DNA of 64,000 nt from Octopus vulgaris (lineage: Eukaryota), in assembly GCA_951406725.2 (NCBI GenBank), contig OX597818.1, positions 68,262,001 to 68,326,000 on the forward strand, given 5' to 3'. This document shows positions 5,508 to 63,149 of the stretch, piece after piece (position 1 is the first letter of the stretch; each line of letters opens with the position of its first letter). The notes below the pieces were generated by a model, which worked only from the letters and a program-made list of their open reading frames with translations, had not been told where the DNA came from and ran no database searches. A program made the position numbers and the translations under genes.

Positions 5508-5775
5508 GTTGCCAGCATCGCCTGGCCCCGTGCCGGTGACACGTAAAAGCACCATCCGTTCGTGGCCGTTCGCCAGCTCTGTCTGGCACCTGTGCAGGTG
5601 GCACGTAAGAAACACCCACTACACTCGCGGAGTGGTTGGCGTTAGGAAGGGCATCCAGCCATAGAAACACTGCCAGATCTGACTGGGCCTGACGAAGCCT
5701 TCCAGCTTCACAGACCCCAGTTGACCCGTCCAACCCATGCTAGCATGGAAAGCGGACGCTAAATGATGATGATGA
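5508..5775 (+). mobile_element. RTE LINE 3' UTR/tail fragment
   Basis: gagtggttggcgttaggaagggcatccagc...gcatggaaagcggacgctaaa then (TGA)n; same tail as the RTE copy at 11375-12258. Confidence 0.85.
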
Positions 5776-5787
5776 TTATTATTATTA

Positions 5788-6220
5788 TTGAGTGAGGGAC
5801 CAGTGTATGCCATCACAGTGATACTAGGGTAAAATGTACGAAACCCAGTATACCATCAATACTACCTGTCTGATAAGGGTACACCAGGCACATGCATCAC
5901 AACCACATGTGCGCGACATGGTGATCTTATATCAAGATAAAAACCACATGAATAAGGTCTGTTTAAGTATGTTGAACAATCCTTAATTAGGGACCTTTTG
6001 AGCGGGATGGGTTACTCGACCAGAAGAAAATTCTAACTGGGCCCCACCTTCAAGGTCTTGCACTGTTTATCTTGATATGAGATCCCCATGTCATGCACAT
6101 ATGGTTGTGATGCATATGCCTAGTGTACCCTTATCAGACGGGTAGTCATGATGGGTATACTGGGATTCATATATTTTACCCCAGCGTCACTTTGATGGCG
6201 TACTCTGCTCTCTCACTAAA
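5788..6220. mobile_element. Fold-back element with ~160-bp inverted arms embedded in (ATT)n/(AAT)n
   Basis: 5788-5945 is the reverse complement of ~6062-6220 (e.g. gtctgataagggtacac / gtgtacccttatcagac; atatcaagataaa / tttatcttgatat). Confidence 0.8.
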
Positions 6221-11039: not shown

Positions 11040-11210
11040 ATACTCTCGGAGTGGTTGACGTTAGGAAGGGCATTCAGTTGTAGAAACTCTGCCAGATCAG
11101 ACTGGAGCCTGGTGCAGCCTTCTGGCTCGCCAATCCTCAGTCAAACCGTCAAACCCATGCCAGCATGGAAAGCAGACGTTAAACGATGGTGATGAGGATG
11201 ATGATGATGG
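11040..11210 (+). mobile_element. RTE 3' tail fragment
   Basis: ggagtggttgacgttaggaagggc...gcatggaaagcagacgttaaacgatg. Confidence 0.85.
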
Positions 11211-11374
11211 TAATTGTTTCATTTGAGTTTTATTTTTATACCCTTTTCTGGCTCTAAAAGCCTCTAGGAAACTAGAAATGTGCCAAAACTATAAATCAGT
11301 CTTTTTTAGGTCTTTTAAAATTTAGAACTATAAAAGCAGCAATTTTTAACTCTAAAGCAAAAATAAACACTGAA

Positions 11375-12258
11375 AATGTGCAGAGAACCTTGAGAGAAAA
11401 GTTGGACCTAAGAAGCATCAGATGTGGCAAGCAAGATAGACAACTGCGCTGGTATGGTCATGTGGTGAGAATGGATGAGGATAGTTGTGTAAAAAAGTGC
11501 CACACCCTAGCTGTTGAGGGAACCTGTGGAAGAGGTAGACCCAGGAAGAACTGAGATGAGGTGGTGAAGCATGACCTTCAAGCATTAGGCCTCACCAAGG
11601 CAATGACTAGTGACCGAGACCTTTGGAAATATGCTGTGCTAGAGAAGAATCAGCAAGCCAAGTAAGACCATAATCTCGTGGCCTATGCCAGTGGGGGGGG
11701 GGGGTAACCAGCCCACTTATGTGTACCTTTCCTTCATTGGACACTATACTCTGCTTGTGAAGACCTGTTGAGGCAAGTGAAATCGAAAGCAAATTCGATG
11801 ACTGACATCTGTGCTAGTGGAGCGCTAAGAGCACCATCTGTGCGTGATCATTGCCAGAGCAGCTAACTGGCGTCTGTGTTGGTGGGCACATAAAAAGCAC
11901 TATTCGAGAGTGATTTTTACCAGCGTTGCCTTAATGGCACTTGTGCCGATGGCACATGAAAAATCATTCAAGCGAGGTCATTGCCAGTGCCACAGGACTA
12001 GCTCCTGTGCAGGTGGTACCTAAAAAACACCAGTTGAGCATGGCTGTTGCCAGTACCCCCTGACAGGCCCTCATACCAGTGGCATATAAAAGTACCCACA
12101 ACACTCTTGGAGTGGTTGGCGTTAGGAAGGGCATCAAGCTGTAGAAACTGTGCCAGATCAGATTGGAGCCTGGTGCAGTCACTGGCTCTCCTAGCCTCAG
12201 TCAAATAGTCCAACCCATGCCAGCATGGAAAACGGACGTTAAACGATGATGATGATGA
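11375..12258 (+). mobile_element. RTE-clade LINE 3' end (ORF C-terminus + repeat-containing 3' UTR)
   Basis: Translation LRWYGHVVRMDEDSCVKKC...GRGRPRK*DEVVKHDL...DRDLWKYAV; 3' UTR ends gacgttaaac(GAT)n. Confidence 0.9.
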
Positions 12259-12269
12259 TATATATAGAT

Positions 12270-13547: not shown

Positions 13548-13962
13548 AGATAGTTTTATATTCTTTAAAATTCTTTGAATTCTTTTAATTTTTAATTTTA
13601 CAATTTTATAATTTTTAGTTTTAAATTTCAATCCTTAATCTATTTACTAGTTTAATTTTGTTTTTCAATTATTCTAATCTAATTTCATTTAAAATTGTGT
13701 TTGGTTTTAAATAACTTCATTTCAATTTATTTCATTTTAATTTTCAAAATTTTTTCTTAACCTCACCTTTCTCCCTCTGTTTCTATATCATCTTTATGCT
13801 AAGCACAGCTTTCTCAAACTTCCCATAATATAGTTACTGCTGTTCTTTCAGTCATTCTCTAATACAATTCCTCCATTATGCCTGATGCTACAACTGACCA
13901 AATATTTCAGTAGATCGTGTGTGCAAGCGGCCTATATCAAATTTCAACACAGTATTTGGAGA

Positions 13963-14333
13963 TTATTTATATTTGACAGATATTTGTCCTCATCTTGTTT
14001 GTTGTTAACACACTCCCACTACACCATATGTCCACGGGCATATAGCGTAGTGGTTAAGAGCATGGGCTACGAACCCCAAGATTCCAAGTTCGATTCCAGG
14101 CAGTGACCTGAATAATAATAATAATAATAATAATAACAACAACATCGAAAAATACCATAGGAATGAGAACCCAGGTTCGAAATTTCCCCAGGACACCTGA
14201 AGAAGGCTGGAGTGTATCTCAGCCGAAACGTGGTGTTAACAACAAACAAGATGAGGATAAATATCTGTCAGATGTAAATAATGTAAATAATGTGTATAAT
14301 TCCTCATCTCTTAAAAATAGAACTGAGTTATAA
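13963..14333 (+). mobile_element. tRNA-head/(AAT)n/hammerhead element, copy A (with inverted tail and head copy at 5' side)
   Basis: A box tagcgtagtgg 14043-14053, B box gttcgattcc 14088-14097, (AAT)n, hammerhead core; 13962-14011 is the inverse of 14233-14282; flanked by tatttggaga at 13953 and 14334. Confidence 0.85.
14192..14237 (+). ncRNA. Minimal type I hammerhead ribozyme motif (Penelope-type)
   Basis: Stem I gacac/gtgtt, core CTGAAGA 14197-14203, stem II ggctg/cagcc, GAAA 14225-14228, loopless palindromic stem III (acgt); cleavage-site base is G in this copy, so probably inactive. Confidence 0.7.
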
Positions 14334-14624
14334 TATTTGGAGAGTATCTGACTTGTAAGCATTGCAAATATTTGTTTCGTTTAATGAAAATTACAAACAC
14401 TAATGATTCTTTTTTTATAACAGTCCTTTCCTTAATTTCACCGAAAACCCCTCTCCCTTCCTCTCTTCACTGCCTCCCTCACTCTATTCCTTCTATTCTG
14501 TTCTCTCTTCCTTTCTTTCCTTCCGAACCATCTCTTATCTTCAGCTTTATCTCTCTTCCAGTCACCTTACTCTGATACTTATTGTCCCTTTCACTCCTCC
14601 CACCACCACCACCCATCACAAGAT

Positions 14625-21849: not shown

Positions 21850-22150
21850 ATTGTGCTGGTGCCACATGTATAGTGCCTTTGCTGGTGCCACATAAAAAAA
21901 AAAGCACCTGTCTCGGTGCCGTGTCTAAAGCAACCAGACTGATGCCATGTACAAAGCACCTGTGCCAGAGTTCTGCAAAAGAAATAAAGTACACTCTTCA
22001 AAGTGGTTGGCATTAGGAAGGGCATCCAGCTGTAGAAACCTTACCAGACAGACAACAGGAGCTTGGTGCAGTGCTCCATCTTATTAGCACCTGTAAAACC
22101 CTCCAACCTATGCAAGCATGGAAAACAGGTGTTACATTATGTTGATGATG
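21850..22150 (+). mobile_element. Diverged RTE 3' tail
   Basis: aagtggttggcattaggaagggcatccagctgtagaa...gcatggaaaacagg. Confidence 0.75.
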
Positions 22151-25167: not shown

Positions 25168-25650
25168 CATCATCATCATCGTCGTTTAACGTCCGCTTTC
25201 CATGCTAGCATGGGTTGGACGATTTGACTGAGGACTGGCGAACCAGATGGCTGCACCAGGCTCCTATCTGATCTGGCAGAGTTTCTACAGTTGGATGCCC
25301 TTCCTATGCCAACCACTCTAAGAGTGTAGTCGGTTCTTTTACGTGCCACCAGCACGAGGGCCAGTTAATCAGTACTGGCAAAGGCCACGCTCAAATGGTG
25401 TTTTTTACATGCCACCTGCGCAGGAGCCAGTCCAGCACCACTGGCAATGACCTCGCTTGAATGTTTTTTCACGTGCCACTGGCACAAGTGCCAGTAAGGA
25501 GACACGGGTAATGATCATGCTTGATTGGTACTTTTTTACATGCCACCAGCACAGGAAGCCAGTTAGATGCTCTGGCAACGATCATGCCCAGATGGTTGTC
25601 TTAATGCACCACCAGCACAGATGCCAGTCAGCGAATTTGATTTCAATTTC
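25168..25650 (-). mobile_element. RTE 3' UTR/tail
   Basis: (CAT)n gtttaacgtccgctttccatgc...ggatgcccttcct...repeated gtgccacc units. Confidence 0.85.
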
Positions 25651-26488
25651 AGTTCTAATAATTAATACTACTTCCTAGGTTTATGATTAGTGTCTAATCA
25701 AGAACTTGAATTGTTTAGTAAATTACAGGTGTTTTTTCCACACGTAAGATGTGAAAGAATGAACAGTGCTTGTGAGTTTCACAGGCCCTCTTTGACTGTT
25801 AAGGTCAATGCTATTAATTCTTGAAACTTTGTCCCTCAACGACTGTGAGAAAGATATGAGTAGGGGTTTGTAATGCCTGAGGGTTGATATTTTTTTGGAT
25901 GGAAACCATTGTTGTAGTAATAAGAGCAGGCGTTGGGGGGTGAGTGTGAGGAGAAGAGGAGAGCTGTGTGAAAGAGAAATGCCTAAGGTGAAGTGACACA
26001 AACCCAGTCAGCACTGAAGTGGGAGAGTTCATTATAGAAGTGGGGGGGGGAGAAAGAAAGAGTGCTTTACGATATCAGGGAGGTTTGGCTGGTGTTTCTA
26101 GAAGCTTAAACACTCTCTTACATGCTCCTTCATTGATTTGCAATGAACCAGTTGCATTCAGCAGTTTACTTCACTGATTCAGGGGAGTTCCAGAGAACCA
26201 TGAATCAAAATTTATCTTGCAGGAAATATGGTTATGAACCTCTCTCCCATTGAGGGATGAACTTATTTGACCAATTCATTTGACCAACTGACCTCTCAAC
26301 TCATTACAGTAACATGACTGAGTATTGAACCAACATGCATGCCTTCAATATCATTTTCAGGCCAAATCAACATGAGTCAGTGAACCTTATAATTGAGGAT
26401 TTAAAAACCAGGTCCATTTATCTGACAAGCTTCCTCAGTTTTCAAGGCTTGGGGCTTGGGATGACCAAAACTTATGACAAAAGTAATC

Positions 26489-26639
26489 CACATTATTTAC
26501 ATTATTTACATTTGGTGGATATTTGTCCTCATCTTGTTTGTTGTTAACACAACATTTCGGCTGATATACCCTCCAGCCTTCTTCAGGTGTCTTCGGGAAA
26601 TTTCAAACCTGGGTTCTCATTTGTAAGGTTTTCTTCAAC

Positions 26640-26671
<32 letters not shown>

Positions 26672-26852
26672 CATTATTACTATTATTATTCAGGTTACAA
26701 CCTGGAATTGAACTTGGAATTTTGGGGCTAGTAGCCTGTGCTCTTAACCACAACACCATAACAACAATAACAACAAACAAGATGAGGACAAATATCCGTC
26801 AAATGTAAATAAGGTAAATAATGTAAGTAACGTACATAGTTCCTCGTCTCCT
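26489..26852 (-). mobile_element. tRNA-head/(AAT)n/hammerhead element, copy B (minus unit + plus-oriented tail)
   Basis: Minus unit 26490-26760 with hammerhead at 26546-26591 (CTGAAGA...ggctg/cagcc...GAAA); inverted tail 26768-26852; flanked by aaaagtaatc at 26479 and 26853. Confidence 0.85.
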
Positions 26853-28079
26853 AAAAGTAATCAACTCCCGTCAGATGTGACACAAGACCTCATGGCTTTA
26901 AATGAAACTTCTTAACTAAGAGGCCATGTTTGTTCACTATTTTTATGTTATTTTTTAGTTTGAAAGGAAGAGAGTACCCACATTCTTAAACAGTGTATTC
27001 TCCAGCTGGGAGCCTGACCTTGAATGCTTGCAACAGGTCGGACTTTTCTAAAGGCAACCAGGGGTGGTGGCCAGATGGTTGTGTTCGTCCAAATGGAATT
27101 TACGTCTACTACTGCAGTTGGTTTGACAGGATTTGAACCCAAAAATGTAAATAACCATCAGAAAAACTCTCCAGCATCTAGATGAACATTCTTACTTTTG
27201 GTCATCGACATACTCATCATCATCATAATCGTCATCATCATCATTCAACACCCATTGTCCATATTGGCATGGGTCGGATGGTTTGACCAGGGCTGGCAAA
27301 TTGGTAGGTCTCAGTTTGGTATGTTTCTATTGGCCTTGATAAGGTCAATGGCTAATATGACCTCAGCAGGACTTAAACATGAAACACAGATTACCAATGA
27401 ATTTTTGTGGTGACCACTAGATAATGATTCTTAACTGGAATGGTAGTTAATTAGTGAGAATAGGGTTTAAAAGTTTGTAGCAGGGATTTGAAACTAAATC
27501 TCTGGATACATGGTCAGACACCATGAGCAAACCACAATGGCTTTGCATAATCAGTCTATTAAGCAAGCAACCAGCATCATGCCAGCTTCTAGAATCTTCT
27601 TCTTGCACCCTATAAAAGGCTTCTTTTGGCAGTAATTACTTGCAGAACGTTGAGGCAGCCAAGTGAGATGTGTGTCTCCATTCCTTACCACACCAGACAT
27701 CCCATGCTGCACATCACTCAAACAGTTGACCAAGAACCTCCCTCTCCACAAACATAGCACAATCACTTCCAGCCATGTTGGATAATCCACTCGTTGCCAT
27801 ATCAACAGCTTGCCATAAACTCCAAGCAGCATCTCTCCCCCAGTCTGTAATTATTGCTGTTTTTACCTGTAAAAGGCCAATGCAGTTTGTCTTTATGCAT
27901 GATAATAAAATCTTCTGTTAAATGTTCTCAGGTGTTGTTCAGGTAATTCTTCACGCAGCCCAAGAAACCTATTTCCATTCATCAACTTAACCAGTCACCA
28001 TCACAGATCAGCCAACCAACAACCAGGAGACAAGTTCAATGAAATGTTCCATTGGTTTATAATGGGAGCTCTATGCACA

Positions 28080-32120: not shown

Positions 32121-32299
32121 ACATTATTTACATTATTTACATTTGATGGATGTTTGAACTTGTTTGTTGTTAACACAAGTTTCAGCTGATATACCGTCCA
32201 GCCTTCATCAGGTGTCTTTGGGGAAATTTCAAACCTGGATTCTCATTCCTAAGGTATTTTTGGATGCCATCATCGTCATCATCATCATCATCATCATCA

Positions 32300-32332
<33 letters not shown>

Positions 32333-32522
32333 GTAGTAGTAGTAGTAATATTACTACACTCTCTGAGTTGTTGGCATTAGGAAGGGCATCCAGCTGTAGA
32401 AACTCTGCCAGATCAGACTGGAGCCTGGTGCAGCCATCTGGCTCGCCAGTCCTCAGTCAAATTGTCCAACCCATGCCAGCATGAAAGCGGATGTTAAACG
32501 ATAATAATAATAATAATAATAA

Positions 32523-32559
<37 letters not shown>

Positions 32560-32630
32560 TATTCAGGTCACTGCCTGGAATCGAACTCGGAATCTTGGGG
32601 TTAGTAGTCCACACTCTTCACCACTATGCC
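32121..32630 (-). mobile_element. tRNA-head/(AAT)n/hammerhead element, copy C, interrupted by an RTE tail
   Basis: Hammerhead 32172-32216 (CTGATGA core on minus); head 32560-32630; RTE tail inserted at ~32353-32500 within the microsatellite. Confidence 0.8.
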
Positions 32631-41309: not shown

Positions 41310-41680
41310 GTACACCAAGTCATTGTCATGGCCGATGACAGTACCGCCTAATTGGCAACCATGCCAGTGGCACGTAAAAAGCACCATTCGAGTGTGGTCG
41401 TTGCCAGTGCTGCCTGACTGGCTCCAACGCCTGTGGCACGTGAAAAGCACCATCCAAGCATGGCTGATGTTAGTACTGCCTGATTGGACCTCATGCAGGT
41501 GGCGTGTAAAAGGCACCCACTACACTCTCAGAGTGGTTGGCATTAGGAAAAGCATCCAGCTGTAGAAACATTGCCAGATCAGATTGGAGCCTGGTGCAGC
41601 CTTCTGGCTCGCCAGCCCTCAGTCAAACCATCCAACCCATACCAACACGGAAAGCAGACATTAAATGACGACAACAATGA
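41310..41680 (+). mobile_element. RTE 3' UTR/tail
   Basis: Repeated tggcacgtaaaaagcacc units, then gagtggttggcattagg... Confidence 0.85.
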
Positions 41681-41708
41681 TGTTGTTGATGATGATGATG
41701 ATGATGAT

Positions 41709-47294: not shown

Positions 47295-48017
47295 CCAGGA
47301 AGACCTGGGATGAGGTGGTGAAGCATGACCGTCAAACTTTGGGCCTCACCAAGTCAATGACTAGTGACCGGGACCTCTGGAAATATGCTGTGCTTGAGAA
47401 GACTCGGCCAGTGCAAGCGAGAACTTAACCTTTTGGCCTATGCCTGAGGTGCAACCTGTCCACCTATGCATGCCTTTGCTGCATTGGACACTAAACTCTG
47501 CTTGCAAAGACCTGTTGAGGCAAGTGAAATCGAAATCGAAATCAAATACAATAACTGGCATCCGTGTTAGTGGAGCGCTAAGATTACCATACGAGTGAGA
47601 TCGTTGCCAGAGCAACAAGCTGACCTCTGAGCCGATGGCAGGTAAAAAGATTGTTCAAGCATGATCGTTACTTGCGTCACCTTACTGGCACATGTGCTGG
47701 TGGCACGTGTAAAAACATTTGAGCAAGGTCGTTGCCAGTGCTGCTGGACTGGCTCCTGCGCAGGTGGCACATAAAAAGCACCATTTGAGTGTGGCTGTTG
47801 CCACTACCACCTAACTGGCCCTCGTGCCGGTGGCACGTAAAAGATCCCACTACACTCTCGGAGTGGTTGGCGTTAGGAAGGGCACCCAGTTGTAGAAACT
47901 CTGCCAGATCAGATTGGAGTGTGGTGCAGCCATCTGGTTCACCAGACCTCTGTCAAATCGTCCAACCCATGCTAGCATGGAAAGCAGACGTTAAACGATG
48001 ATGATGATGATGATGAT
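47295..48017 (+). mobile_element. RTE LINE 3' end
   Basis: RKTWDEVVKHD...DRDLWKYAVLEK plus repeat-containing 3' UTR and (GAT)n. Confidence 0.9.
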
Positions 48018-49104
48018 ATACAACAGGCTTCTTTCTGTTTCTGTCTACCAAATCCAATCACAAGACTTTGCTTGGTCAACACTATAGAAGAAATCCCTTG
48101 CTGAAGATACCATATAGTGGGACGGAACCCAGAAGCATGTGGTTACAGAGCAAGCTTCTTACCACACAGCCACACCTGTGCCAGTCTTACATAAGACAAA
48201 ATGTTCTCAGCAGGAATGTTTTGATTCCAGTAAGAACCAAACTTGTATTTCCTTCAAATGTCTACAGAAAGAACCAAACTCTGCTTGGCAAGTTGAATTA
48301 AGTACAGGACATCACATTTATTTAAGTTGGAGTTAAAAGTTAAGTATCTTGGAGATGGAAACACAGAAATATGAAGTTATCAGAAAACAAGCTATTAACC
48401 CTTAGGCAAGTTCTTTGGTATCTACTAAATAATCAATATTCACTTCTCAACAACAGCATTTATTTCTCAAAAATTACATTCTGAACTTAATATAAACTTT
48501 ATACTCCATACCATCTTATATTCTACAGAAAATGGTATTTCTTCTTCGAGAAGTCCTTTATTGGTTTCTGCCATTACAGTGTGGCCATGCTGCTTTACAG
48601 CCTTCTGGGGCTTTTACTGCTTCTGTTGACACTTACCATTTATCTGCTGCCGATTTTGTCATTCTCATAATATTTGGAATACAAAATAAACACTGCTTTA
48701 ACGAAACAATATCCACTTGGACATAATTTCCACAAGGAATTTCTGTTTCAATGTATCAGGTTATACTCCACTTTGATATACATACAAACGTGTGTGTGTG
48801 TGGTGTGTATGTGTGTGTGTGTGTGTGGTCTAATGGTTATGACATTGCACTCACAATCGCTAGGTCATGTGTTCAATTCCCAGATCCATTAAATGTTCCT
48901 GAGCAAAATATTTCTTTTCACAATGTTCCAGTTCACTCACATGCAACAGGTAACCCTGTGACGGAATAACCTTTTGATCAGGGGGAATGTTGGTCAGCTC
49001 ACCTTTCCAGCAGGGTAGCATCATTTGAAAGGTAAAACAATGCAAAGCACATTGTAACTAGTGATGTATAACAACATCCGATAGGTTGGCCAATATTGTG
49101 ATAG

Positions 49105-50039: not shown

Positions 50040-50049
50040 CCACCATTTT

Positions 50050-50970
50050 CATTTAACATCCATGTTCCACACTGGCATAGGTTAGATGGTTTGACTGAAA
50101 ACTTGTAAGATTAGGAGCTGCACCAAGTTCTAATCAGATTTGGTATGGTTTCTACAGCTGGATGCCCTTCCTAACGCCAACAATTCCAAGAGTAACTGCC
50201 TCCATGTGGCCCAACATTTAAATGATGCTTTTTACATTCCATCAGCACAGGTACCAATTACGCAACTCTGGCATCAGTCACAACTGTGATTTTAGTTAGC
50301 TTGAGGGCTCCTCTCAAGCATAGCATATCGCCAAAGGTCTTGCTCACTTCTCATTGCCTCCATCAGGTCCAACGTTCAAAGATCATGCTTCAGCACCTCA
50401 TTCCATGTCTTCCTAGGTCTACCTCTTCTACAGGTTCCCTCCACCTTTAGAGTGCGGCACTTCTTCAAACATCTGTTCTCGTCCCTATATATCACATGCC
50501 CAGTCTAGTGCTGCCATCTCTCTTGTGCACCACATGTTTGGCCTCTTATGCCAAATTATTCTCTCAAGATGCTTACACTCTGTCATCCATTGCACATCCA
50601 GTGAAGCATATCAGCTTAATTTCTTTGAAGCCTTTGCTTATCCTTGGCAGTCACACCCCATGTTTCATTACCATGTAGCATGGCTGTTTGTACCCCCAAG
50701 CATCATTCAGTCTGCCTTGCATTCTGGGGCAGAGGCCCTTTGTTACCAACAGAATTAAGAGGTCTCTGAACTGTGCCCAGTCTATTCTTATTCTAGCAAC
50801 TCTGCCCTCAGAACATCCTCCCCAACCACTGATTTGGTTACCTAGGTAACCGAAACTATCAACTGCTTCTAGTTTTCCCTGCTGGTATTTGATGAAGTCC
50901 ATTTTCTGTACATTTTTAATGTTAATTGTACCTGTGCACCTTCCACACACAAAAACTATTTCCCTTGTCA
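50050..50970 (-). mobile_element. RTE LINE 3' portion, decayed
   Basis: KLEAVDSFGYLG...ARIRIDW..FRDL...KGL...GRL; GRGRPRKTW; RTE tail. Confidence 0.85.
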
Positions 50971-62518: not shown

Positions 62519-62572
62519 AGGAAATTTTGAACCTGAGTTTTCATTCCTAAGGTATTTTTGTTTATGTTGTTG

Positions 62573-62612
<40 letters not shown>

Positions 62613-62867
62613 TATCATTCAGTAGTTTTATTTTTATAGCGTGCTTTCACTTCACTACCGAGCGCAGCTCTGTGGGCCTTAGGTATGTGCTGTGATGCTC
62701 TGATGGTTATTGTATGGAAAGTGTTCTGCGTAGGATGTGTGCAGTGCCTAGTAGTCCAATTTTCTGTATGTTATATGTGTTTGTAAGTCCTGGTGTTTTT
62801 GTTATGTATTTGTCTGAATATTTTTTTATCATGCCTAATGCACCTACTATGATAGGAATTGTTTCTG

Positions 62868-62950
<83 letters not shown>

Positions 62951-63149
62951 TCACTGCCTGGAATCGAACTTGGAATCTTGGGGTTAGTAGCCTACATTCT
63001 TAACCACTACGCCATATGCCTGTGGGTTCGAAATTTCCCCAACATACCTGATGAAGGCTGGAGGGTATATCAACCAAAACATGTTAACAACAAACAAGAT
63101 GAGGACAAATATCCGTCAAATGTAAATAATATAATTAATGTAAATAATG
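62519..63149. mobile_element. tRNA-head/(AAT)n/hammerhead element, copy D (inverted 5' part + plus tail), interrupted by an R4-like insert
   Basis: Minus head 62944-63021; plus tail from ggttcgaaatttcccc (63025) with CTGATGA at 63048 and a decayed GAAA. Confidence 0.8.
62617..62870 (-). mobile_element. R4/Dong-like LINE 3' end inserted in (TAA)n
   Basis: KTETIPIIVGALGMIKK...IQKIGLLGTAHILRRTLS*; (TTA)n on both sides. Confidence 0.85.

What the first reader, a model, noticed from the sequence alone, without database searches (positions are those of the whole stretch)
13963..14333. Dispersed Pol III SINE-like element carrying a Penelope-type hammerhead ribozyme (candidate PLE-mobilised retrozyme), four copies in 64 kb
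Seen: four copies (13963-14333, 26489-26852, 32121-32630, 62519-63149) share one ~290-nt layout. It runs tRNA-like head (A box TRGCGTAGTGG, B box GTTCGATTCC), (AAT)n spacer, a second GGTTCGAA motif, the hammerhead gacac-CTGA(T/A)GA-a-ggctg..cagcc-GAAA-cgT(T)-gtgtt, then a tail with (ATGTAAATA) repeats. There is no ORF and no poly-A or LINE-type tail. Known: minimal type I hammerheads mark Penelope-like element pLTRs, and Schistosoma Sm-alpha is a tRNA-related repeat with a hammerhead. Inference: this is a non-autonomous tRNA-promoter element that uses a PLE tail and ribozyme to be copied by Penelope RT/GIY-YIG rather than by a LINE. I do not know of such a family described in cephalopods.
Basis: partly seen in the sequence, partly recalled or inferred. 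Interest (0 to 1): 0.82.

Follow-up and report, generated by a model that had tools for sequence, protein, structure and literature searches.

The report
Penelope jumping gene with tRNA promoter
These repeats are the short end-pieces of a protein-coding Penelope-type jumping gene, not a separate SINE, and each end-piece begins with a tRNA-like segment that likely works as a built-in RNA polymerase III promoter just ahead of a predicted self-cleaving RNA motif.

Summary
The four loci are real, but they are not a free-standing SINE or retrozyme. The ~290-nt unit is the terminal repeat (pLTR) of a coding Penelope-like element (PLE): the tRNA-like head lies 30 nt behind the stop of an RT + GIY-YIG ORF in 26 of 30 ORF-end copies, and the unit also holds the ORF's first ~52 codons. 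Inverted pairs, a tail on one arm (107 of 133 pairs) and a minimal hammerhead are standard PLE traits. The unusual part is a tRNA-Arg-like A/B box at the pLTR start, kept in two subfamilies. Copies stop sharply there: 74 of 92 head-bearing arms begin between -7 and +12, about 30 times the truncation rate inside the ORF. This likely marks a polymerase III start at about -6, so SINE-sized copies arise from the PLE's own promoter. Transcription by polymerase III is inferred, not shown; RNA reads were uninformative. About 19,000 hammerhead-bearing arms genome-wide, ~8% diverged, no intact ORF seen. Closest analogue: Cassandra/Helenus TRIMs, which are non-autonomous LTR elements.

The parts
13953..13962 (+). 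left target-site duplication of insertion c1 (10 bp)
   Evidence: same 10-mer at 14334-14343; 62 of 133 pairs have such repeats against 4.3 in shuffled pairing
13963..14012 (-). inverted arm of c1: pLTR 3' part without the optional tail
14016..14033 (-). inverted copy of the first ~17 nt of the head (symmetric head-to-head junction)
   Evidence: sequence; 351 exact junctions of this form in the genome
14030..14109 (+). 6-nt leader (inferred RNA start G at 14030) plus tRNA-Arg-like head (+1 at 14036; A box 14043-14053, B box 14088-14097)
   Evidence: best match among 7 sampled own-genome tRNA isotypes is tRNA-Arg(TCG), z 8; 5'-end pile-up
14110..14144 (+). (AAT)n spacer; a non-repetitive A-rich spacer in sister subfamily B
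14163..14325 (+). 5' end of the PLE ORF (ATG 14163), open through hammerhead and 9-nt repeats; joins the RT ORF in tandem copies
   Evidence: 27-nt in-frame indel between subfamilies
14192..14237 (+). minimal type I hammerhead motif (c1 copy mutated at the cleavage triplet)
   Evidence: features match Cervera and de la Pena 2014
14296..14325 (+). optional ~30-nt PLE tail ending at the second 3' end class
   Evidence: two 3'-end classes in 310 arms
14334..14343 (+). right target-site duplication of c1
26479..26862 (-). insertion c2: minus-strand arm 26758-26490, plus-strand partial arm 26768-26852, 10-bp duplications 26479-26488 and 26853-26862
32121..32630 (-). copy c3, single arm from head +8, unrelated repeat nested at 32353-32515
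62519..63149 (.). insertion c4: minus arm 63026-62519 (head to spacer, LINE end nested at about 62622-62870) joined to plus arm 63025-63149 (hammerhead, tail)

Best explanation
The repeats are terminal-repeat (pLTR) copies of a protein-coding Penelope-like retrotransposon, and the tRNA-derived segment at the start of that pLTR likely acts as an internal RNA polymerase III promoter that sets the 5' end of most template RNAs. Shown: the head, hammerhead and tail follow the RT/GIY-YIG ORF and also precede it in tandem copies; copies end at two fixed 3' sites; 5' ends pile up at the head start; inverted pairs are single insertions with ~10-14-bp duplications. Inferred: an ancestor captured a tRNA-Arg-derived piece in its 3' UTR before subfamilies A and B split. 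RNA starts at about G(-6). The PLE protein nicks both target strands and starts reverse transcription internally at the two tail sites (by analogy with anole Poseidon), so an RNA that starts at the head gives a ~300-nt SINE-sized cDNA, and an RNA read through a tandem gives an ORF-bearing one. The two cDNA ends join by microhomology or through the short palindrome at the RNA start, which yields head-to-head pairs. The hammerhead would cleave only as a dimer or with protein help. The family appears extinct.
For: pLTR identity: head match directly behind the ORF end in 26 of 30 loci; RT domain (Pfam RVT_1); GIY-YIG and C-x-C..H..H motifs align with ~800-aa homologues, Pfam GIY-YIG weak in 5 of 14 homologues; tail joins the ORF start in most of 30 ORF-start loci. 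Defined 5' end: of 92 head-anchored arms 74 begin at -7..+12 and 18 run on; hazard 0.07 per nt at -8..+1 against 0.0023 per nt in the ORF (30 copies). Without the 31 symmetric junctions, 21 of 39 arms at risk still end at -7..+1. Three direct-orientation junctions (L350, L359, L361; the first two may share a source) join at exactly G(-6). Most ends lie at or beyond the palindrome loop, not in front of it. In ORF-start copies the upstream head is passed in 4 of 5 or 6 cases against 18 of 92 (Fisher p 0.009-0.02), which argues against a fixed structural stop. A and B boxes differ between subfamilies only at degenerate positions; no T4 run in the pLTR. Insertion: one-arm tail in 107 of 133 pairs, duplications in 62 of 133.
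Against: No transcript was seen: three RNA-seq runs of a related organism show equal depth on both strands and no site where many molecules begin. Box conservation between A and B is not significant by itself (about 9 of 73 head positions differ, none in ~14 box positions; chance about 0.13, my arithmetic). Truncation is also raised at +2..+12 (0.03-0.04 per nt), so the step is not one base wide. The head-anchored sample was picked by an exact 24-mer on one contig, which favours young copies. The unbiased 600-kb sample held only 2 heads, one running into the ORF and one starting at +8. The 4-of-5 test is small. Rfam does not recognise the hammerhead and no compensatory changes were found between A and B.
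Confidence: 0.62

Rival explanations
1. Ordinary 5'-truncated PLE copies: the tRNA-like piece is a passive passenger in the 3' UTR, and the pile-up comes from RT pausing and fold-back at the short palindrome in front of the head.
For: 351 exact symmetric junctions at the palindrome; 31 of 74 head-start arms are symmetric; heavy 5' truncation and inverted copies are general PLE traits (Craig 2021; Cervera 2014).
Against: 43 of 74 head-start arms are asymmetric; direct junctions at G(-6); the stem is only 4-5 bp; the head is mostly passed in ORF-start copies; head kept in two subfamilies about 80% alike.
Confidence: 0.2
2. The start at -6 is a real RNA 5' end but is made by polymerase II initiating in the pLTR (as for Drosophila Penelope) or by tRNA-processing nucleases cutting a read-through RNA.
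For: PLE promoters lie in the pLTR and are internal (Craig 2021); a few arms begin at +1 (6 of 43 asymmetric), where RNase P would cut.
Against: The start coincides with the distance expected upstream of an A box (own knowledge); acceptor and T stems are broken in both subfamilies while the boxes are kept; junctions at -6 lie upstream of an RNase P site.
Confidence: 0.12
3. An independent non-autonomous SINE or retrozyme family that borrowed the PLE tail.
For: Most copies are short and start at a tRNA head; short copies are somewhat less diverged (6.7% against 9.0%, confounded by how loci were picked).
Against: The same head is part of the coding element in both subfamilies; no fixed diagnostic variants between 131 short and 75 ORF-linked heads; copies are inverted pairs, not tandem monomer arrays.
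Confidence: 0.06

Closest known systems
Penelope/Poseidon-type PLEs, e.g. anole Poseidon PAc (Frangieh 2024, PMC11167929)
   Same: Single ORF with RT and C-terminal GIY-YIG; ORF starts at or before the hammerhead; pLTR; two 3' ends defining an optional tail; inverted 5' arms.
   Different: A tRNA-derived A/B-box head opens the pLTR, and most copies begin there. The parts of the PAc paper I read mention no such head. Clade not tested against named references.
TRIMp3 elements: Cassandra, Helenus, Ajax (Kojima 2024, PMC10886601)
   Same: Small-RNA-derived polymerase III promoter inside the terminal repeat; proposed origin by a SINE inserting in the repeat.
   Different: Those are non-autonomous LTR elements with PBS and PPT. 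Here the host is a PLE, the promoter is in the coding element itself, and a hammerhead follows. Kojima argues autonomous partners must use polymerase II.
Schistosoma Sm-alpha / Sj-alpha (as reviewed in PMC6765202)
   Same: Polymerase III-type repeat carrying a type I hammerhead.
   Different: Described as SINE-like, often tandem, with no coding partner named; here the unit is a pLTR with a minimal hammerhead.
Non-LTR retrozymes (PMC7229834; bioRxiv 10.64898/2026.07.22.740005)
   Same: Short hammerhead-bearing units related to PLE pLTRs.
   Different: Defined as tandem arrays giving circular RNA; no tRNA or Pol III term in the preprint. Here copies are single arms or inverted pairs.
Octopus tRNA-derived SINEs OK, OR1, OR2 (Ohshima and Okada 1994; not seen, citation only)
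   Same: tRNA-derived heads; Arg origin for OR1/OR2 is recalled, not checked.
   Different: OR1/OR2 are cited as CORE-SINEs. I could not compare sequences, so overlap with one of the three is not excluded.

Membership tests
EN+ Penelope-like element | Single ORF with RT | tested here: met
   RVT_1 in L061 and L281; 569-aa open frame in L281
EN+ Penelope-like element | C-terminal GIY-YIG endonuclease with CCHH motif | tested here: met
   motifs align with homologues; Pfam GIY-YIG below cut-off in 5 of 14 homologues and absent for own copies; folds were too poor to use
EN+ Penelope-like element | pLTR, partial tandem and inverted 5' copies | tested here: met
EN+ Penelope-like element | 30-40-bp tail at one end only | tested here: met
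   two 3'-end classes; 107 of 133 pairs
Penelope/Poseidon clade | RT phylogeny with named clade members | not testable with these tools
   no named PLE references held; assignment rests on layout only
minimal PLE hammerhead | CUGANGA and GAAA core, extra base after A9, G10.1-C11.1, palindromic 15.2-16.2, short helix I | tested here: met
   family majority has all; N7 is the only two-state column (T 48, A 26 of 75); 21 of 75 copies intact; definition
minimal PLE hammerhead | Self-cleavage | not testable with these tools
   needs an in vitro assay; Rfam models give no hit
tRNA-derived SINE | tRNA-related head with A and B boxes | tested here: met
tRNA-derived SINE | Independent non-autonomous family with a LINE-type tail | tested here: not met
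   unit is the coding element's pLTR; no separate lineage
tRNA-derived SINE | Transcribed by polymerase III | tested here: inconclusive
   5'-end pile-up fits; RNA reads show no start
non-LTR retrozyme | Tandem monomer arrays with a hammerhead in each unit | tested here: not met
   single arms and inverted pairs dominate; one direct partial repeat among 30 loci
non-LTR retrozyme | Circular RNA | tested here: inconclusive
   no hammerhead-to-hammerhead back joint among the 15 listed joints; 92 more not shown
TRIMp3 | LTRs with PBS and PPT, non-autonomous | tested here: not met
   PLE layout with own ORF

The most novel reading that the evidence does not exclude
A protein-coding retrotransposon whose whole RNA, 2.4-kb ORF included, was made by RNA polymerase III from a captured tRNA promoter. 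The family majority has no run of four T in ORF or pLTR (2.3-3.6 expected, p 0.03-0.06; 1 of 40 distant relatives has none), and two copies (L343, L352) start at the head and run straight into the ORF. SINE-sized copies would be by-products of internal RT initiation on that same RNA.
Probability: 0.18. Interest if true: 0.82.

Novelty: new variant of a known kind. Interest (0 to 1): 0.52.

Why it matters
It shows a route to SINE-like elements without a LINE: a tRNA promoter inside a Penelope pLTR turns the element's own end into a ~300-nt mobile unit, the PLE counterpart of Cassandra/Helenus. Repeat libraries would likely file these copies as tRNA SINEs. The thousands of copies also record PLE integration in vivo: one tail per inverted pair plus 10-14-bp duplications fit two priming events per insertion, which can be tested with the existing Poseidon in vitro system. 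If the ORF RNA too was a polymerase III product, it would challenge the view that autonomous elements need polymerase II.

Tried and rejected
Rfam on the whole window (only 150 of 253 rows listed, all microsatellite-driven miRNA matches), on c1 and on an intact copy: no hammerhead, tRNA only E 6. ARAGORN default: no tRNA in the window; relaxed, 5-11 of 31 heads. Sequencing-run search: no RNA holder listed. Read laying: uninformative on strand and start. Structure prediction: pLDDT 34 and 41, not used; PDB sequence search gave only weak RT hits. A/B-box scan behind 26 distant PLE-like ORFs found none, but the positive control found only 3 of 30, so it says nothing. Enrichment of 5' ends just behind the hammerhead cut (35 arms in 18 nt against 10 in the 29 nt before) is confounded by AAC/AAT microhomology and was not counted as evidence. 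A>G excess in reads is explained by the reference copy's own changes, also seen in contigs of another run. Search for an intact ORF: none among 150 scored of 8,247 candidates, longest open frame 569 aa. Earlier scan findings: nothing. Literature searches returned no report of a tRNA/Pol III head in a PLE pLTR; Repbase, Dfam, SINEBase sequences, the Zenodo library of PMC13282606 and bioRxiv supplements could not be seen and may already hold this consensus.

Full report
Observation. The four loci exist and are related far beyond chance. The window lies in a 2.8-Gb genome, G000:C5:68262001-68326000. The layout head, (AAT)n, hammerhead, tail holds for c1-c3. c4 is two opposed arms. No ORF body lies in the window.

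The unit is a pLTR. One of the 30 best genomic relatives (L007) had coding sequence in front of the head. Searching with that ORF end gave 30 loci; 26 carry the head right behind the stop, +1 lying 30 nt after it. L061 is a near-complete element with an RT domain; L281 has a 569-aa open frame. Its C-terminal part aligns with GIY-YIG and C-x-C..H..H motifs of ~800-aa homologues; Pfam GIY-YIG is weak (5 of 14 homologues, below cut-off; none for own copies), and look-alike clusters in the ESM Atlas carry RVT_1 and, in one set, GIY-YIG on 47% of members. In 30 loci chosen by the ORF start, the pLTR tail joins the ORF directly in most. The frame opens at an ATG upstream of the hammerhead and runs through it and the 9-nt repeats; a sister subfamily B differs here by a 27-nt in-frame indel. 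Frangieh 2024 (PMC11167929; I read parts 1-2 of 4) reports the same overlap of ORF start and hammerhead, internal RT initiation at two sites that define the tail, cutting of both strands and a predicted dimer.

PLE insertion signature. Among 310 arms the 3' ends fall in two classes about 30 nt apart. Of 133 distinct inverted pairs, 107 have the tail on exactly one arm, 8 on both, 18 on neither, and 62 are flanked by a shared word of 8 nt or more, mostly 10-14, against 4.3 in shuffled pairings. Inverted 5' copies and a one-sided tail are known (Craig 2021, PMC8557442, passages), as are opposed hammerhead pairs 100-700 bp apart (Cervera and de la Pena 2014, PMC4209133, Results section). That each pair comes from two priming events is my inference.

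Hammerhead. In 75 distinct copies from 83 loci not anchored on it, the majority has the full minimal motif; the free position N7 is the only two-state column (T 48, A 26), and 21 of 75 copies are intact. The overlapping ORF could also explain that column (Asp/Glu). Rfam gives no hit. Core and helix II are identical in A and B; no compensatory change was seen. Activity is untested; the 2014 paper found such motifs weak and dimer-dependent.

The tRNA head. It matches the genome's own tRNA-Arg(TCG) best among 7 isotypes in 30 sampled tRNA loci (z 8). Subfamily B (about 80% alike in the ORF; 209 matches of a 23-mer with one mismatch) has the same head at the same place. A and B differ at about 9 of 73 head positions, none at invariant box positions; stems are broken in both. 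This is consistent with a promoter but not significant. One older copy, L300, lacks the head; it may be a deletion or an ancestral state.

Where copies begin. Exact 24-mer counts fall from 4,043 (hammerhead 3' side) to 1,362 (head) to 696 (CpG-free UTR just upstream); 351 sites show a symmetric head-to-head junction and 345 the UTR-linked form. I examined 92 arms from the first 90 loci of the 1,362 head matches, all on C1: 74 begin between -7 and +12 and 18 run on. The end rate is 0.07 per nt at -8..+1, 0.03-0.04 at +2..+12, about 0.01 just upstream, and 0.0023 inside the ORF (30 of 696 UTR-anchored copies, median 405 nt). Of the 74, 31 are symmetric and 43 are not; of the latter plus run-on arms, 21 of 39 end at -7..+1. 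Three direct junctions join at exactly G(-6). Among the 30 ORF-start loci, 22 begin downstream of the head, 3 inside it, 1 at its start and 4 pass it into the previous ORF; 4 of 5 (or 6) against 18 of 92 gives p 0.009 (0.02). A fixed RT stop would hit both contexts alike, so a real RNA 5' end is the better reading. Short and ORF-linked heads (131 and 75) show no fixed differences.

Against. Raw RNA reads from three runs of a related organism (about 6% of each run read) cover both strands equally, step up at the head as copy number does, and show no start site; this fits passive read-through of old copies, and library strandedness is unknown. The unbiased sample is small: 600 kb held 4 hammerhead arms and 2 heads, giving about 19,000 arms genome-wide (5,000-48,000). 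Median divergence is 8% over 59 aligned copies, some of them duplicates, and no intact ORF was found among 150 scored, so the family is probably extinct; at the octopus rate quoted in PMC13282606 this would be ~22 million years, if that rate applies.

Polymerase III read-through. The majority has no T4 run in pLTR or ORF: p 0.03 by base shuffle, 0.06 by synonymous shuffle; G4 runs are absent too and the strand is T-poor. One of 40 distant ORFs, all richer in T but one, has none. L343 and L352 start at the head and continue into the ORF. Suggestive only; this is the novel case.

Comparison. Kojima 2024 (PMC10886601, passages) describes small-RNA promoters in the LTRs of non-autonomous elements and expects polymerase II for autonomous ones. 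Sm-alpha combines polymerase III and a hammerhead (review PMC6765202, passages). Retrozymes are tandem arrays (PMC7229834, passages; bioRxiv 10.64898/2026.07.22.740005, parts 1-2 of 5 plus a term search with no tRNA or Pol III hit). Cephalopod repeat papers give class totals only in what I saw (PMC13282606 parts 1-2 of 3 and supplement passages; PMC8967140 and PMC6962438 passages). PMC4824008, PMC4758252, PMC3531059 and 10.1101/596502 were seen as passages. Ten searches found no PLE with a tRNA head; repeat databases and Ohshima and Okada 1994 could not be checked.

Verdict. Identity as a PLE pLTR is close to certain. A polymerase III promoter in it is likely (about 0.6) and would be a new variant of a known kind. 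Interest 0.52.

Noticed in passing
window 62622-62870 (minus strand): 3' end of a LINE nested in the (AAT)n spacer of c4; it translates to a C-terminus ending ..IQKIGLLGTAHILRRTLSIQ. Resembles Dong/R4-type elements that target (TAA)n (recalled). The same insert is upstream in L002 and L021.
   Followed up: partly
window 32353-32515; also 5618-5790, 11042-11239, 12098-12260, 21990-22134, 25169-25330, 41519-41681, 47849-48018, 50045-50193: A second dispersed repeat with at least nine copies in the window, one nested in c3's spacer; probably a SINE 3' part.
   Followed up: no
L350, L359, L360 (G000:C3:3756495-, C3:4755319-, C12:24731337-): Three copies break at the same ORF position (about 234 nt in) and resume, after 1-2 extra A, at G(-6) of the head (two) or at the predicted hammerhead cut (one), suggesting template jumps between RNA ends or a deleted derivative family.
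   Followed up: partly
L300 (G000:C18:60294500-60300200): A diverged copy (76% alike) with ORF end, spacer and hammerhead but no tRNA head; possible pre-capture state or deletion.
   Followed up: no
window 14272-14292: The 9-nt tail repeat is in frame with the ORF and, in another frame, reads as start-stop (ATG TAA) units just behind the hammerhead cut.
   Followed up: no
L155 (G000:C12:25267077-25270148): Cluster of at least seven tRNA-Cys-like genes in 3 kb.
   Followed up: no
window as a whole: Four insertions of this family in 64 kb is about ten times the density in 600 kb of evenly spaced samples; cause not examined.
   Followed up: no
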